Below, piece after piece: positions 4,231 through 25,088 of a stretch of 64,000 nt of DNA. The translations under genes were made by a program, and so were the position numbers. The first letter of the stretch is position 1, and every line of letters begins with the position of its first letter. Origin of the DNA: Candidatus Hydrogenedentota bacterium. GTDB taxonomy: Bacteria > Hydrogenedentota > Hydrogenedentia > Hydrogenedentales > SLHB01. The stretch lies in contig CAXXTH010000017.1 in NCBI GenBank assembly GCA_963668025.2, positions 1,152,001-1,216,000 on the forward strand. The letters are read 5' to 3'. The notes below the pieces were generated by a model. The model was given only the letters and a program-made list of their open reading frames with translations, was not told the DNA's origin and ran no database searches.

Positions 4231-4428
4231 GCGTCGTTCTCGCTCTCCGGGGTTGATTCCTATCACCCGCCACGGCGCGCATAGGCGCGGCGGCGCGCTG
4301 CAAACCCGTATTGTGCCATGCCTTCGAAGGAGGGTCAAGGCGCCGCACCCTTGCGAGGATAAAAGAGATGCCTGTAAGCATGTCGATACAAATAGCAATT
4401 CCACGACGCAGTCATGAACGTAGATCCC

Positions 4429-4476
4429 GTAGCATGGGCGTCCCGCCCATGCGCATGGCCGGGACGGCCATGCTAC
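4429..4476. repeat. REP-like doublet, family 1 (GTAG-footed palindrome)
   Basis: GTAGCATGGGCGTCCCGCCCATGCGCATGGCCGGGACGGCCATGCTAC, identical to 25011-25058. Confidence 0.85.
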
Positions 4477-4613
4477 GAGAACTGCATCTCTCTTTTCTCG
4501 TATCCGGCAATTTGAGCCGCACTGCGACGCATCATCCGTGGAGCAATATGGGCGCTCCCCGCCGCCCGCGCCAGGGATCGCGGGCGGGGGAGAGCGCCAG
4601 ATGGCAAGCCCCA

Positions 4614-13803: not shown

Positions 13804-14742
13804 ATGACGGATACACCCAAAATCGTGCTTGTAGCCGATTCACAGTCCAGCACGCTCAATTTATTAAGCGGCGCGGTTGCGGCGGCAGGATTTCTGGTGC
13901 GTCCCGCGGCATCTTTCCACGAAGCGATTGAATCGTTTTACGCCCAGCCTCCCCAATGCATCATTACGCGCTTGGAAATGGAAGATTCGCCCTGCTCCAA
14001 ACTGCTGGATGAAATCAAACGGGATAACTTTTATGGCCATTTGCCGGTCATCCTCGTGGCGAGGCAGGAATATATCGAGCGTGGCATCGATTGGCATCTC
14101 GTTCCAGCGGATGATTATTTGATAGAGCCGTTGAGCGTATGGGAGGTGGCTTCCCGAGTCCGGTTGTGCTTGTCCAGGGCGCTGCGTGATGTCAATGCGA
14201 ATCCGCTTACGGGCCTGCCGGGCAACTTAACCATCATGCGCGAGGCCGAGCGCCGCCTCAGCACGGGCCAGCGCTTCAGTTTCGCCTATCTCGACGTGGA
14301 CAGTTTTAAATCGTTCAATGACAAATATGGCTTTTCACGCGGCGATGAAGTGCTCCGAATGACCGCCCGGATCATCGTTAATGCCGTCCGCTCCCTTGAT
14401 AGCCTCGATACTTATGTCGGCCATATCGGCGGCGATGATTTTGTCTTTATTACGCCATGTGAGTTCATGGCCCACGCCTGCCAGCGCATCGCCAGCAATT
14501 TCGACCTTATCGTCCGCGATTTTTATGATGCCGATGATCGGGAAAATGGGTTTATCCAGTCCATGGACCGCCAAGGCAAGCCCCAGACCTTTCCCCTTAT
14601 GAGCGTTTCCATCGGAGCCGTGGACACGAGCACTGCGGAAATCCAGCATGTAGCCGATATGTTCACGCGCGTCACGGAAGTCAAATCATTCGCCAAGCGC
14701 CTGCCCGGCTCGAATTTCATCATGGACCGCCGCCGCGGATAA
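13804..14742 (+). CDS. Receiver-like domain + GGDEF-family diguanylate cyclase
   Basis: NPLTGLPGN, DVDSFKSFND.YG…GD, HIGGDDF. Confidence 0.88.
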   Translation: MTDTPKIVLVADSQSSTLNLLSGAVAAAGFLVRPAASFHEAIESFYAQPPQCIITRLEMEDSPCSKLLDEIKRDNFYGHLPVILVARQEYIERGIDWHLVPADDYLIEPLSVWEVASRVRLCLSRALRDVNANPLTGLPGNLTIMREAERRLSTGQRFSFAYLDVDSFKSFNDKYGFSRGDEVLRMTARIIVNAVRSLDSLDTYVGHIGGDDFVFITPCEFMAHACQRIASNFDLIVRDFYDADDRENGFIQSMDRQGKPQTFPLMSVSIGAVDTSTAEIQHVADMFTRVTEVKSFAKRLPGSNFIMDRRRG

Positions 14743-15226: not shown

Positions 15227-15291
15227 TTCGCGGCCGTTTCCATGATGCTTCCAACTGAACGGCCCGTGCAGGCGGCTGTTTTTTAGGCAGC

Positions 15292-15326
15292 AAAAGCGGG
15301 CAGCCCTTCCGGGCGGCCCGCTTTTT
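15292..15326. terminator. Bidirectional intrinsic terminator
   Basis: AAAAGCGGGC-AGCCC-TTCC-GGGCG-GCCCGCTTTTT between convergent genes. Confidence 0.75.
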
Positions 15327-15357
15327 ATTCCTGTTCCGCTTTCCTCGATAGGTGTAA

Positions 15358-15777
15358 TCAGTTCGTTCGGGACAATTCCATATCTCCGTAGAAGAGTTTC
15401 CCGCCGCGCACCGTGACGATATAGGACATATCTCCTGTTTTCACCGTGATTTGCCCCGCGTCAAAGGTCCATTCGCCAGATTCCGAGCCGTTGGCCGTCA
15501 ATTTGCCGTCTTGCCCGAAAGCCAGCGTGAGCGGGCCCGCGCTCCAAGCGGTTCCTGGCAGCGATTCCGCTGTCAGGGCAGCTTCGGGCGCTGGATTCGC
15601 CGCAGGTGCGGAAGCGGCGCTAACTGGTTTTACCGTTTGTGCGGGCTCTGCCGGCTTGCCGGTTTCGCCGCCACAACCAGTTGCCAGAATGACAACCGCT
15701 AATGCCATGGCTCCATGCAAGAAGATCCTCCAAGGGGCCATTTGATTGCTGTTACGCAGCCATTTCCCGCTTTGCAT
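15358..15777 (-). CDS. Hypothetical lipoprotein
   Basis: AAGGAG RBS, lipobox ATGC, Pro/Ala linker, small beta domain (LPGTAW). Confidence 0.65.
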   Translation of the reverse strand: MQSGKWLRNSNQMAPWRIFLHGAMALAVVILATGCGGETGKPAEPAQTVKPVSAASAPAANPAPEAALTAESLPGTAWSAGPLTLAFGQDGKLTANGSESGEWTFDAGQITVKTGDMSYIVTVRGGKLFYGDMELSRTN

Positions 15778-15795: not shown

Positions 15796-16218
15796 TTACT
15801 TTTCAGCAGCCTTGCCCAAGGCCAGCATGATGGACGATTGTGCATCATCTTTTATGACCTTGATGCTTAATGTACGCGAATCCTTGCTATAGGTCATCGT
15901 GTACATCAGGCCGCCTTGATCCGCAGACATCTCTTCCGTCCACTGATTAGCTTTCGCCTGCTCTTTGAAGCTCTTGACTACCTGGCCATACGTATCGGGC
16001 GTTACCGCGGATAGGGTATAGACGCCCTCTGCCGCACCCTTGGCGCACATCTCGATCTTCATGTCTTTGTAGAGCGGCACATCTTTTGGAAAGTCTTCAG
16101 GAATCTGTGCATCTTCACCGATCAGCACTGGCGGGGCATCGGATTTCTTCGACGCCGCCGACTCTGCGCCATCGGCCACCCCGGCTTCGGCGATAGAAGC
16201 CTGAGCCGGGGTGACCAA
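15796..16218 (-). CDS. Globular domain ORF, probably the -1 frame extension of the upstream lipoprotein
   Basis: IPEDFPKDVPLY motif seen in exported proteins; no signal peptide or RBS at its TTG; frame is open back to the slippery site at 16236. Confidence 0.65.
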   Translation of the reverse strand: MVTPAQASIAEAGVADGAESAASKKSDAPPVLIGEDAQIPEDFPKDVPLYKDMKIEMCAKGAAEGVYTLSAVTPDTYGQVVKSFKEQAKANQWTEEMSADQGGLMYTMTYSKDSRTLSIKVIKDDAQSSIMLALGKAAEK

Positions 16219-16226
16219 TTGATGGT

Positions 16227-16529
16227 TTAGTTTCCCGCTGGGGCCGGGGCTGGCGCTGGCGCTGGCGCCGGAGCTGGTGCCGGAGCCGCAGGGGCTGCCG
16301 GAGCTGGTGCCGGAGCCGCAGGCGGAGTTATCGGAGCAGGCATAGCCGGCGGCGCAGGCGGCTTCGGCATGTCAGGCTTTGCCGTGTCAGGCTTCGGCAT
16401 CGGAGCTGGCTTCTCGCCCACGCCTGGTTTTTGCACAGGTTCCGACGGTTTCTGTCCGCATCCTGCTACTACGAGCGTCACCGCCAGCAGTATGCAGCAC
16501 GCCAATCCAAGAGCTGCCATTTTCTTCAT
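16227..16529 (-). CDS. Pro/Ala-rich lipoprotein (100 aa), N-terminal part of a putative frameshift fusion
   Basis: GAGGAG RBS, MKK…lipobox VAGC, then only PAPAPA linker; ends GCG GGA AAC TAA. Confidence 0.75.
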   Translation of the reverse strand: MKKMAALGLACCILLAVTLVVAGCGQKPSEPVQKPGVGEKPAPMPKPDTAKPDMPKPPAPPAMPAPITPPAAPAPAPAAPAAPAPAPAPAPAPAPAPAGN

Positions 16530-16717: not shown

Positions 16718-17971
16718 TCACCGATTCTTTTCCGCTTGTTCCATATCCCGAAACACGGCGGCGGCCAGAAAAACCAACAGCAGCGCCCCGGCGGCAGGGA
16801 CTGCCCAGAAGATGCGGTAATCAATGGCCCCGTCCGCATAAGTAAACCATTGGGCGAGTTTTCCAGCAAGAAGGCTGCCTCCGAGCACGCCTCCGCCCGA
16901 GAATATCATGGCGAAAATCTGCTGGGCCCCCGAGCGCTCGCCTGGCCGGCAATAGGTGTCCAGGCAAATGAAAGCCGCTGCGAAATACAACGCATAGCAC
17001 AATCCATGTGACGCCAAAGCCATCAATACTAATGTATCCGGTTTGCCGATAGCTAACGCGCCATAGCGGAACACCTCCGCCAGCAACCCGGCTATCAATA
17101 CCCGCTTAAACCCCCACCGCGCCAAAATGCGGCCCAGGCAAATCATGACGCCGACTTCGGTGACTTGGCCCAGGCTCATGGCGGGCATGATATAGGCGTC
17201 CGCATAGCCTCGGGCGTGCAGAAAGGGCGCCGCGCCAAAATAAAAAAAACGGTCCACCACGGCCGCCAAAAAGGTCAGTATTCCCAATCGCGCCACGGAA
17301 CCATTAAAGTATAGCTTTAGGGCGTCCCATGGAGACGCCTTTAAAGCGCCTGATTCTTGGCGGCGGCTTTGAGGAAGGGCGAGAGCGCCCGCGGCGAATA
17401 CGAACGATACGATAGCGGACAGCCATAAGGTATCTTGCAGGCGGCCCGAATTTAACTCGCCCGAAGGCGTTCGCAGCCAGCCGAAGCCGAATATGACTGC
17501 CACGACGATGCAGCTTGCCGTGCCCCATAACCGGATGATCCCAAAATCACGCCCATTTTCTTTCAAGTGGTGAAAGACAATGGCGTTGGTCAAACCGAAT
17601 GTAGGCGCGAAGCAGAGGCTGTATATTAAGTACCATATTATAAATGGACCATATTTGGTTTGCTGGGCCAGCATAAGCATGGCCAATCCGCCCAATGCAT
17701 TGCAGAGGGACAGCAGGCGCTCGTCGCTGATCCGATGATTCGCAAGACGCATGATGAAAAGCGGCGCGATGATTGCCGCCACCGCAGGCATGGCCAGCAC
17801 TTTTCCTATTTGGAATGCCTCGAAACCAAGCGTATCTTTCAAATAGAGGCTCAATATGGGCACGGTCGCACTTGGGATGAGATGTTCCAGGAACATCATG
17901 CTGTTGAGCCGCCAGCGAATGCTTCGTTTCACGGATTGATCCAGTCTGTTGTGTGAATGCCGATAACGCAA
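16718..17971 (-). CDS. MFS transporter, nucleoside:H+ symporter (NupG/YegT-like)
   Basis: About 12 TM segments, MMFLE, DFGIIRLWGT, MSLGQVTEV; start uncertain. Confidence 0.85.
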   Translation of the reverse strand: MRYRHSHNRLDQSVKRSIRWRLNSMMFLEHLIPSATVPILSLYLKDTLGFEAFQIGKVLAMPAVAAIIAPLFIMRLANHRISDERLLSLCNALGGLAMLMLAQQTKYGPFIIWYLIYSLCFAPTFGLTNAIVFHHLKENGRDFGIIRLWGTASCIVVAVIFGFGWLRTPSGELNSGRLQDTLWLSAIVSFVFAAGALALPQSRRQESGALKASPWDALKLYFNGSVARLGILTFLAAVVDRFFYFGAAPFLHARGYADAYIMPAMSLGQVTEVGVMICLGRILARWGFKRVLIAGLLAEVFRYGALAIGKPDTLVLMALASHGLCYALYFAAAFICLDTYCRPGERSGAQQIFAMIFSGGGVLGGSLLAGKLAQWFTYADGAIDYRIFWAVPAAGALLLVFLAAAVFRDMEQAEKNR

Positions 17972-24905: not shown

Positions 24906-25010
24906 TTCCCGCTCCTCTACCTAAGTAATGCATAGGTATATGGGATGGACCGCTGGCCATTTTCGGCCGGCGGTCCTCATGTTTAGGATTTGAGAAGAAC
25001 AAACATGCTT

Positions 25011-25058
25011 GTAGCATGGGCGTCCCGCCCATGCGCATGGCCGGGACGGCCATGCTAC
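25011..25058. repeat. REP-like doublet, family 1
   Basis: Identical to 4429-4476. Confidence 0.85.
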
Positions 25059-25088
25059 AGGGGCTTACATTTATAAAATGGGTGTTTC

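What the first reader, a model, noticed from the sequence alone, without database searches (positions are those of the whole stretch)
15796..16529. Candidate -1 programmed ribosomal frameshift giving two isoforms of a chromosomal lipoprotein
Seen in sequence: the minus-strand mRNA reads GCG GGA AAC UAA A CCAUC AAUU GGUCACCCCGGCU [17 nt] AGCCGGGGUGGCC GAUGG. (1) G GGA AAC (16236-16230) is a correctly phased X XXY YYZ heptamer directly before the stop of a 100-aa ORF that has only a lipobox and a Pro/Ala linker. (2) A hairpin starts 4 nt downstream (16225-16169): a 13-bp GC-rich stem with one G-U pair plus a 5-bp basal CCAUC/GAUGG stem. (3) The -1 frame (GGG AAA CTA AAC CAT CAA TTG GTC...) is exactly that of ORF 15796-16218, which has no RBS or signal peptide. 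Established: heptamer plus 3' structure is the classical -1 PRF signal; G GGA AAC is used in SRV-1 gag-pro and PEG10, and G GGA AAG in lambda G/GT; non-mobile bacterial cases (dnaX, copA) are few. Inference: the locus makes a 100-aa lipidated stalk and a 244-aa stalk-plus-domain form at a set ratio, with junction …PAPAG(N/K)LNHQLVTPAQ….
Basis: partly seen in the sequence, partly recalled or inferred. Interest (0 to 1): 0.85.

Follow-up and report, generated by a model that had tools for sequence, protein, structure and literature searches.

The report
Frameshift-split lipoprotein gene with slippery site
A small lipoprotein gene that is one reading frame in every relative is split here by a one-base frame break that lies on a textbook ribosome-slippage signal, so it is either a young broken gene or a newly arisen frameshifting site, and the sequence data cannot yet say which.

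Summary
ORF1 (16529-16227, minus strand; lipobox, Pro/Ala linker) ends in G GGA AAC UAA. A -39.5 kcal/mol hairpin starts 4 nt later. The -1 frame continues into ORF2 (16218-15796).

The two ORFs are halves of one gene:
- In 19 of 19 relatives from other genera the ORF2 domain lies in a single open frame. In 18 of them I can read a lipoprotein signal peptide; one is masked.
- The closest full-length orthologue (P0006, 249 aa, 61% identical) is one in-frame ORF.

The break is present in the DNA. Contigs built separately from two runs of one study match the window with no differences.

The signal is statistically exceptional:
- It is the only in-phase heptamer in ORF1.
- It ranks first of 590 genome-wide candidates for downstream structure.
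- 0 of 5000 synonymous recodings fold as well.

The split is not seen in any orthologue I could read. G GGA AAC is a low-efficiency heptamer in E. coli. The hairpin probably predates the break.

My estimates:
- lineage-specific frameshift mutation, default product a truncated lipoprotein: about 0.5
- functional or compensatory -1 frameshifting: about 0.33
- sequencing error or separate translation of ORF2: the rest

The deciding evidence is the DNA of two relatives and a reporter assay. Neither was available.

The parts
16227..16529 (-). ORF1: 100 codons plus TAA. Signal peptide, lipobox Cys24 and Pro/Ala-rich linker, ending PAGN*.
   Evidence: The N-terminus is nearly identical to that of the fused orthologue P0006.
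16458..16529 (-). Lipoprotein signal peptide with lipobox (V-A-G-C), residues 1-24.
   Evidence: Read from the translation. The same motif is seen in 18 of 19 relatives.
16236..16277 (.). Tandem hexamer array (7 copies, 80% matches) that encodes the Pro-Ala repeats and abuts the heptamer.
16230..16236 (-). G GGA AAC, an X XXY YYZ heptamer in phase with ORF1. It is the only one in ORF1.
   Evidence: tRNA-Gly(UCC) and a single tRNA-Asn(GUU) are encoded in the genome.
16227..16229 (-). TAA stop of the 0 frame, directly after the heptamer.
16169..16225 (-). Hairpin: 5-bp base CCAUC/GAUGG, a 4-nt bulge, a 13-bp G+C-rich stem (16216-16204 with 16186-16174) and a 17-nt loop. -39.5 kcal/mol.
   Evidence: (I8)
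15796..16218 (-). ORF2: 140 codons from TTG, in the -1 frame relative to ORF1. That frame is open upstream to 16371. No signal peptide of its own.
15799..16116 (-). C-terminal folded domain (ORF2 residues about 35-140), with beta-beta-alpha-beta4 topology and pLDDT above 90. Family PF27226 (AF_1845, START-like) by precomputed annotation.
15358..15777 (-). Context: a second small lipoprotein gene 18 nt downstream (139 aa, no family), followed by a terminator-like palindrome at 15285-15332.
   Evidence: (I6)

Best explanation
The locus is one lipoprotein gene: signal peptide, lipobox, Pro/Ala linker, and a ~105-aa C-terminal PF27226 (AF_1845, START-like) domain. In this Hydrogenedentota species it carries a real, lineage-specific frame break at the last codons of the linker. 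The break is equivalent to the loss of one base. It lies either in the G/A/C runs at 16227-16238 or in the C-runs just upstream.

Standard decoding therefore ends at UAA (16229-16227) and gives a 100-aa lipidated Pro/Ala tail without the domain. The domain-coding part has no export signal of its own. It is still intact because the break is young.

The hairpin was probably already present in the intact ancestor. The heptamer follows from a break next to a GGG-AAA string. On this reading the PRF-like look is not an evolved programme.

Shown: one gene in all relatives; the break present in DNA contigs of two runs; the anatomy of the signal. Inferred: the age of the break, and that no useful amount of full-length protein is made.
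For: 1. Single ORF in relatives.
- In 19 of 19 loci from other genera the domain lies in one open frame of 157-381 codons. I read a signal peptide with a lipobox Cys upstream in the same frame in 18 of them. L004 is masked there.
- In 139 of the 150 best of 600 family representatives the match starts at residue 35 or later.

2. The closest full-length orthologue is fused. P0006 is 249 aa, 61% identical in the domain, with a near-identical signal peptide. It is one in-frame ORF reading ...APGNPKLATPADPSDAEAGAAD... across the junction. P0003 is a fragment of the same protein.

3. No orthologue with a split was found. All 54 genomes of the family were searched, genome contigs were scanned, and protein searches were run.

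4. The break is in the DNA. Contigs built separately from run X1 (9834 nt) and from run X3 (814 nt, word depth 52, another sample of the same study) match the window with 0 differences and 0 gaps across 16225-16255.

5. The hairpin is probably older than the break. In the disordered linker (ORF2 residues 1-31, pLDDT below 50), the only 6 residues invariant among the window, P0002 and P0003 all lie in the 9 residues encoded by the two stem arms. P0003 belongs to the in-frame species. Chance is 1.1e-4.

6. A one-base loss in or before in-frame GGG AAA codons automatically creates an in-phase G GGA AAC. This is my reasoning.

7. G_GG.A_AA.C is called 'of low efficiency' in E. coli (PMC4066793, passages).

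8. Against the nearest strain (L021) ORF2 differs at 2 synonymous and 4 non-synonymous sites. That fits neutrality but has no power.
Against: - The break coincides with three features at once: the only in-phase heptamer of ORF1, a directly adjacent stop, and the most stable downstream structure among 590 comparable sites in the genome. My rough estimate for that coincidence under a random mutation is a few in a thousand.
- The stem is optimised at the nucleotide level. 0 of 5000 synonymous recodings match it, and all five wobble-wobble pairs are complementary (and my reading).
- ORF2 shows purifying selection against a more distant strain in run X6: 9 synonymous to 5 non-synonymous changes, P = 0.0006-0.004 under neutrality. 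It is not known whether that strain has the break.
- ORF2 is intact in every strain seen (window, L021, and the X4 and X6 pieces).
- G GGA AAC is among the more frequent heptamers in IS1/IS3 frameshift sites.
Confidence: 0.5

Rival explanations
1. Functional -1 ribosomal frameshifting, either newly evolved or 'compensatory'. A fraction of ribosomes slip at G GGA AAC while paused by the adjacent UAA and the hairpin 4 nt downstream. tRNA-Gly(UCC) re-pairs from GGA to GGG and tRNA-Asn(GUU) from AAC to AAA. The ribosomes then continue in the -1 frame to make the 244-aa full-length lipoprotein. The rest terminate and make the 100-aa lipidated stalk. The hairpin was co-opted from the ancestor. The indel was tolerated or fixed because the site is leaky.
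For: - The anatomy is complete and correctly phased.
- The site ranks first of 590 genome-wide.
- The stem exceeds what the peptide requires.
- The -1 product is collinear with the 249-aa fused orthologue.
- ORF2 has no signal peptide or convincing RBS, yet it is intact and was under purifying selection.
- tRNA-Gly(UCC) is present.
- G_GG.A_AA.C is frequent in IS frameshift sites.
- 'Corrective' or 'savior indel' frameshifting is a recognised class (PMC5009743, abstract and passages).
Against: - No conservation. The one readable close orthologue and all distant ones are in frame.
- The heptamer is inefficient in E. coli.
- I see no SD-like stimulator upstream.
- The main 13-bp stem starts 13 nt after the heptamer. 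Only a 5-bp base with a bulge lies at 4 nt.
- No expression-level or protein data exist.
- The prior for a split gene being recoded rather than broken is low.
Confidence: 0.33
2. Sequencing or assembly error. One base is missing from the record in the G+C-rich stretch 16238-16255 (two C4 runs), and the true gene is one ORF.
For: - The genome is a 24-contig draft with a 1.6-Mb contig, so it was probably built from long reads. That is my inference.
- The runs that confirm the sequence belong to the same study as the probable source.
- An added base in the C-runs would also give a plausible Pro/Gly-rich junction (my reading).
Against: - Two separately assembled runs, one at word depth 52, agree with 0 differences.
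- An RNA-library contig from another study (X4 record 18, 0 differences) covers 16077-16237. Metagenome contig L021 is identical to the window from 16237 down to 16057 (first difference at 16056). Both therefore confirm GGG, AAA and the stop. A second X4 contig covers 16256-16673 without gaps.
- The homopolymers are only 3-4 long.
Confidence: 0.08
3. ORF2 is translated on its own, by termination-reinitiation or coupling. Ribosomes that end at UAA open the hairpin and restart at the TTG 8 nt downstream or at the GTG inside the 3' arm. The result is a cytoplasmic domain without a lipid anchor.
For: - TTG (16218) lies 8 nt after the stop.
- Gene callers pick TTG (P0005, 140 aa) or GTG (P0001, 127 aa).
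- The hairpin covers both candidate starts.
Against: - All relatives export the domain as a lipoprotein, so a cytoplasmic copy has no evident role.
- There is no SD-like sequence at a proper distance.
- No promoter-like site was found.
Confidence: 0.07

Closest known systems
IS1/IS3-family transposase orfA-orfB -1 frameshift sites and phage tail-chaperone G/GT sites
   Same: - An X XXY YYZ heptamer at the end of a short upstream ORF.
- A 0-frame stop close by.
- A 3' stem-loop.
- The long fusion protein is the frameshift product.
- G_GG.A_AA.C is listed among the more frequent IS heptamers (PMC4066793).
   Different: - This is a non-mobile, single-copy chromosomal lipoprotein gene.
- There is no conservation of the split among orthologues.
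- I see no upstream SD-like stimulator.
Chromosomal bacterial -1 PRF genes: dnaX, copA, csoS2
   Same: A cellular gene that gives two products from one mRNA through a heptamer plus structure. copA and csoS2 are described in PMC5009743 (passages). dnaX is recalled.
   Different: In copA and csoS2 the shifted product is the shorter one, and the signals are described as conserved features of those genes. Here the shifted product would be the longer one, and the closest orthologue is in frame.
'Corrective' or 'savior-indel' frameshifting (Atkins et al. 2016)
   Same: An indel in DNA is compensated at low level by ribosomal slippage at a shift-prone run, and the non-shifted product is largely useless (PMC5009743, passages).
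   Different: The known examples quoted there are mitochondrial or viral. There is no evidence here that any shifted product is made.
Ordinary frameshifted (split) pseudogene
   Same: The orthologues are intact, there is a single frame break, and the downstream part lacks its own signals.
   Different: The break sits on a complete PRF-like cassette, and ORF2 shows no decay.
PF27226 (AF_1845, START-like) lipoproteins, with weak fold likeness to DcrB, PsbP and Mog1
   Same: - The precomputed Pfam label is on P0001, P0003 and P0004.
- Atlas clusters are named 'Lipoprotein family' or 'AF_1845 START domain-like' at scores 0.87-0.90.
- The best Foldseek hit is the periplasmic lipoprotein DcrB (6e8a_B, E 1.1e-3, TM 0.47).
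   Different: - The local Pfam copy gives no hit.
- The fold matches are weak: none at E <= 0.001.
- Function is unknown.

Membership tests
-1 programmed ribosomal frameshift site | In-phase slippery heptamer X XXY YYZ inside the 0/-1 overlap | tested here: met
   G GGA AAC at 16236-16230. It is the only in-phase heptamer in ORF1.
-1 programmed ribosomal frameshift site | Stimulatory RNA structure a few nucleotides 3' of the heptamer | tested here: met
   The hairpin base starts 4 nt after the heptamer and the 13-bp stem 13 nt after it. -39.5 kcal/mol. First of 590 sites. 0 of 5000 synonymous recodings fold as well.
-1 programmed ribosomal frameshift site | The -1 frame encodes a meaningful continuation of the 0-frame protein | tested here: met
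   The -1 frame holds the PF27226 domain, which follows the linker in frame in P0006 and in 19 of 19 distant relatives.
-1 programmed ribosomal frameshift site | Split, heptamer and structure conserved in orthologues | tested here: not met
   0 of 1 readable close orthologue (P0006) and 0 of 19 distant loci are split. P0002 cannot be read because no DNA was available. Strains at 96-99% identity are too close to count.
-1 programmed ribosomal frameshift site | Heptamer shift-prone in bacteria | tested here: inconclusive
   Literature only. It is 'of low efficiency' in E. coli but frequent in IS1/IS3 sites (PMC4066793, passages). Nothing is known for Hydrogenedentota.
-1 programmed ribosomal frameshift site | Trans-frame protein actually made | not testable with these tools
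   Needs a reporter assay or proteomics.
Frameshifted pseudogene | Orthologues intact; the frame break present in the DNA itself | tested here: met
   (intact orthologues); contigs of runs X1 and X3 are identical to the window, though both come from one study.
Frameshifted pseudogene | Relaxed selection or decay of the part downstream of the break | tested here: inconclusive
   2 synonymous to 4 non-synonymous changes against L021 (no power). 9 synonymous to 5 non-synonymous against the X6 strain, whose frame state is unknown. No stops or indels in ORF2.
Bacterial lipoprotein | Signal peptide ending in a lipobox with an invariant Cys | tested here: met
   Residues 1-24 of ORF1 end in V-A-G-C. 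This was judged by eye; no predictor was run.
PF27226 (AF_1845, START-like domain) | Match to the family profile above threshold | tested here: inconclusive
   Precomputed label on P0001, P0003 and P0004, and atlas clusters 46-79% PF27226 at scores 0.87-0.90. The local Pfam copy returned no family.

The most novel reading that the evidence does not exclude
A very young, species-specific -1 frameshift site in a non-mobile chromosomal lipoprotein gene. A one-base loss just upstream of an older, conserved linker hairpin created G GGA AAC UAA. Ribosomal slippage now yields two products: a 100-aa lipidated Pro/Ala stalk, and a minority of full-length 244-aa AF_1845-domain lipoprotein. If true, this would be recoding caught at its origin from an in-frame ancestor that still exists in a sister species.
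Probability: 0.3. Interest if true: 0.7.

Novelty: new member of a known kind. Interest (0 to 1): 0.4.

Why it matters
Known bacterial chromosomal -1 frameshift genes are few, and almost all known sites are old and conserved. How such sites arise is not documented.

In this case the in-frame ancestor-like state (P0006) and the split state exist in close relatives. The stimulatory hairpin seems to predate the break. If slippage occurs, the locus would show a route by which a frameshift mutation next to an existing structure becomes a recoding site, or is rescued by one. It would also extend recoding to an uncultured phylum, Hydrogenedentota.

If slippage does not occur, this is an ordinary young pseudogene. 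It would then be a useful caution that homopolymer indels create slippery heptamers by construction.

A separate open question is what a strongly selected hairpin does inside the linker-coding part of this lipoprotein gene.

Tried and rejected
Searches that gave nothing usable:
- Protein search with ORF1: 8000 Pro/Ala-rich candidates were scored and none reached E <= 0.01. It says nothing about ORF1 relatives.
- Protein search with P0006: swamped the same way. It returned only P0003.
- Closer genomes: none. The best identity was 42% among all 54 genomes of the family and 45% in the genome-contig scan.
- Pfam and NCBIfam gave no family for ORF1, ORF2 or the downstream gene.
- A PDB sequence profile gave nothing below E 0.09.
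- Rfam gave one chance-level match elsewhere in the linker.
- There is no promoter-like site and no terminator-like site at the hairpin.
- Distant relatives have no comparable hairpin at the linker/domain border.

P0002 (140 aa, 64% identical):
- It starts at the residue that matches the window's TTG. I first read that as a second split gene.
- I rejected it as evidence. Its 942-nt contig is about the size of L021 (1001 nt), which begins at the repeat boundary. A contig cut there would give the same gene call. No tool could fetch its DNA.

Contig ends at 16237:
- X4 record 18 and L021 both end there. I considered an RNA 5' end or a polymorphism.
- It is the boundary of the hexamer array. L021 and X4 carry the same variant letters, so they may not be independent.
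- I make no claim from it.

Other points:
- X4 has no contig over 16238-16255 and X6 none of this organism over about 16121-16231, so the frame state of those strains is unknown.
- The multi-copy element recovered by the genome scan (A8 run, DUF6788 + UPF0236) is not a proven frameshift site, so it is not a positive control.
- I considered a hairpin-templated (quasi-palindrome) mutation as the origin of the break. It could not be tested.
- Supplements of PMC4066793, which hold the per-heptamer values, were not seen. 'Low efficiency' is the paper's wording in the main text.

Full report
**What is there**

On the minus strand, ORF1 (16529-16227) encodes a 100-aa protein. It has a signal peptide, a V-A-G-C lipobox and a Pro/Ala-rich linker that ends PAGN*. 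The last two sense codons and the preceding base form G GGA AAC (16236-16230). TAA follows directly.

The -1 frame is open from 16371 to 15796 and contains ORF2 (TTG at 16218, 140 aa). The hairpin at 16225-16169 has a 13-bp stem with one G-U pair on a 5-bp base. It folds at -39.5 kcal/mol.

**Is it more than chance?**

- G GGA AAC is the only in-phase X XXY YYZ heptamer in ORF1.
- Only three other loci in the 64-kb window, on either strand, fold as stably over 57 nt. All three are intergenic-type palindromes.
- The hairpin is single-copy in the 6.1-Mb genome.
- I scanned the whole genome for in-phase heptamers within 30 codons of the end of an ORF of at least 80 codons, with the -1 frame open for at least 100 codons. 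That gave 590 sites. This locus has the most stable downstream fold (-40.6 against -33.1 for the next).
- I resampled synonymous codons for the same 21-residue peptide from the genome's own codon usage. 0 of 5000 versions were as stable (mean -23.9, sd 4.5).
- All five wobble-wobble pairs of the stem are complementary (my reading).

The structure is therefore selected, or recently created, at the nucleotide level.

**What the gene is**

The relatives named are Hydrogenedentota MAGs. In 19 of 19 loci from other genera, the ORF2-like domain lies at the end of one open frame. In 18 of them I can read a lipoprotein signal peptide in the same frame. L004 is masked there.

A full HMMER search found 600 cluster representatives with E <= 0.001. 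In 139 of the 150 best, the match starts at residue 35 or later.

AlphaFold2 on a 24-row alignment gives a confident beta-beta-alpha-beta4 domain for ORF2 residues about 35-140. Residues 1-31 form a disordered linker. The domain carries the precomputed label PF27226. Atlas clusters name it AF_1845 / START-like and 'lipoprotein family'. Foldseek gives only weak likeness to DcrB, PsbP and Mog1 folds; the best hit has E 1.1e-3 and TM 0.47. The local Pfam and NCBIfam copies give nothing. Function is unknown.

**The decisive comparison**

The protein database holds three closer relatives.

- P0006 is 249 aa and 61% identical in the domain, and its signal peptide is nearly identical to ORF1's. It is one in-frame ORF that reads ...APGNPKLATPADPSDAEAGAAD... 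across the point where the window changes frame.
- P0003 is a 208-aa fragment of the same protein.
- P0002 is 140 aa and 64% identical. It starts where the window's TTG lies, but it comes from a 942-nt contig that probably begins at the repeat boundary. Its frame state cannot be read, and no tool could fetch its DNA.

The ancestral and sister state is therefore a single ORF. The split is specific to this species as far as can be seen. No closer genome exists among the 54 genomes of the family or in the genome-contig scan.

**Is the break real DNA?**

Contigs assembled separately from run X1 (9834 nt) and from run X3 (another sample of the same study, word depth 52) match the window with 0 differences and 0 gaps over the junction.

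An RNA-library contig from a different study (X4 record 18) and metagenome contig L021 confirm the sequence from 16237 downstream. That stretch includes GGG, AAA, the stop and the hairpin. A second X4 contig covers 16256-16673 without gaps.

Only the same-study runs cover 16238-16255. I therefore keep a small probability of a sequencing error there.

**Selection**

- Against a strain in run X6, about 4% diverged, ORF2 shows 9 synonymous and 5 non-synonymous differences. Under neutrality P is 0.0006-0.004. The domain was therefore under purifying selection for most of that divergence. Whether the X6 strain carries the break is unknown.
- Against L021, the count is 2 synonymous to 4 non-synonymous, which has no power.
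- ORF2 has no stop or indel in any strain.

**Age of the hairpin**

Within the disordered linker, six residues are invariant among the window, P0002 and P0003. All six lie in the nine residues encoded by the two stem arms. None lies in the loop or in the following 16 residues. Chance is 1.1e-4.

P0003/P0006 is the in-frame species. The hairpin, or a motif it encodes, therefore probably predates the break. This weakens 'hairpin next to heptamer' as independent evidence for an evolved programme. It leaves open that a break next to an existing structure is leaky. Distant relatives have no such hairpin.

**Mechanistic assessment**

For a -1 slip:
- tRNA-Gly(UCC) can re-pair from GGA to GGG. The single tRNA-Asn(GUU) would re-pair from AAC to AAA with a wobble mismatch.
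- Sharma et al. 2014 (PMC4066793, abstract and passages; supplements not seen) state that in E. coli the best motifs allow cognate A-site re-pairing.
- They call G_GG.A_AA.C 'of low efficiency'. They also list it among the next most frequent heptamers in IS1/IS3 elements, where it is 'very likely used'.

Geometry:
- The adjacent stop and the 4-nt spacer to the hairpin base are compatible with stimulation.
- The 13-bp stem proper starts 13 nt after the heptamer.
- I see no SD-like sequence upstream.

Atkins et al. 2016 (PMC5009743, abstract and passages) describe 'corrective' and 'savior-indel' frameshifting as a class. They also describe copA and csoS2 as chromosomal -1 cases.

**Weighing**

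A one-base loss in or just before in-frame GGG AAA codons creates an in-phase G GGA AAC by construction. Such runs are where indels happen. Even so, the joint placement is unlikely under a random mutation. That placement combines an adjacent stop, 4 nt to one of the strongest structures in the window, and the top rank in the genome. My rough estimate is a few per thousand.

Against this stand the low prior that a split gene is recoded, the absence of any conservation, and an inefficient heptamer.

My estimates:
- about 0.5 for a lineage-specific frameshift mutation whose default product is the truncated lipoprotein
- about 0.33 for functional or compensatory -1 frameshifting
- about 0.08 for a sequencing error
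- about 0.07 for separate translation of ORF2

**Verdict**

- The 'one protein in two frames' reading is right.
- 'Programmed frameshift giving two isoforms at a set ratio' is plausible but unproven.
- This is a good candidate for a reporter assay and for reading the DNA of the two relatives. It is not yet a finding of recoding.

Noticed in passing
window 4422-4483, 25010-25059 and 4551-4598: Two copies of a REP-like palindrome share one core, and a third strong G+C-rich palindrome lies nearby. These are the only structures in the window as stable as the hairpin studied.
   Followed up: no
L035 (G000:C17:826800-829400), 391-753 and 777-2090: A multi-copy element, at least 9 copies in the genome scan. 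It has a DUF6788 orfA ending in an A8 run, followed by a UPF0236 (transposase-like) orfB with its own ATG. It may use slippage at the A-run.
   Followed up: partly
window 16236-16277: An imperfect hexamer array (7 copies) encodes the Pro-Ala repeats and ends at the heptamer. An RNA-library contig (X4 record 18) and metagenome contig L021 both end at 16237, the array boundary.
   Followed up: partly
window 16174-16216 (ORF2 residues 2-15): The residues encoded by the two stem arms are the only invariant ones in an otherwise variable, disordered linker across three species. One of those species has the gene in frame. This points to a conserved hairpin of unknown role inside the coding sequence.
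   Followed up: partly
window 15358-15777 (minus strand): A second small lipoprotein gene (139 aa) lies 18 nt downstream, with no family in Pfam or NCBIfam. It is co-linear in contig L021 and is followed by a terminator-like palindrome at 15285-15332.
   Followed up: no
window 13804-14742 (+) and 16718-17971 (-): The neighbours are a response-regulator/GGDEF protein and a nucleoside:H+ symporter-family MFS transporter.
   Followed up: no
L021 890-1001: The end of the metagenome contig repeats an earlier stretch after a long perfect palindrome at the terminator. This looks like an assembly artefact rather than biology.
   Followed up: no
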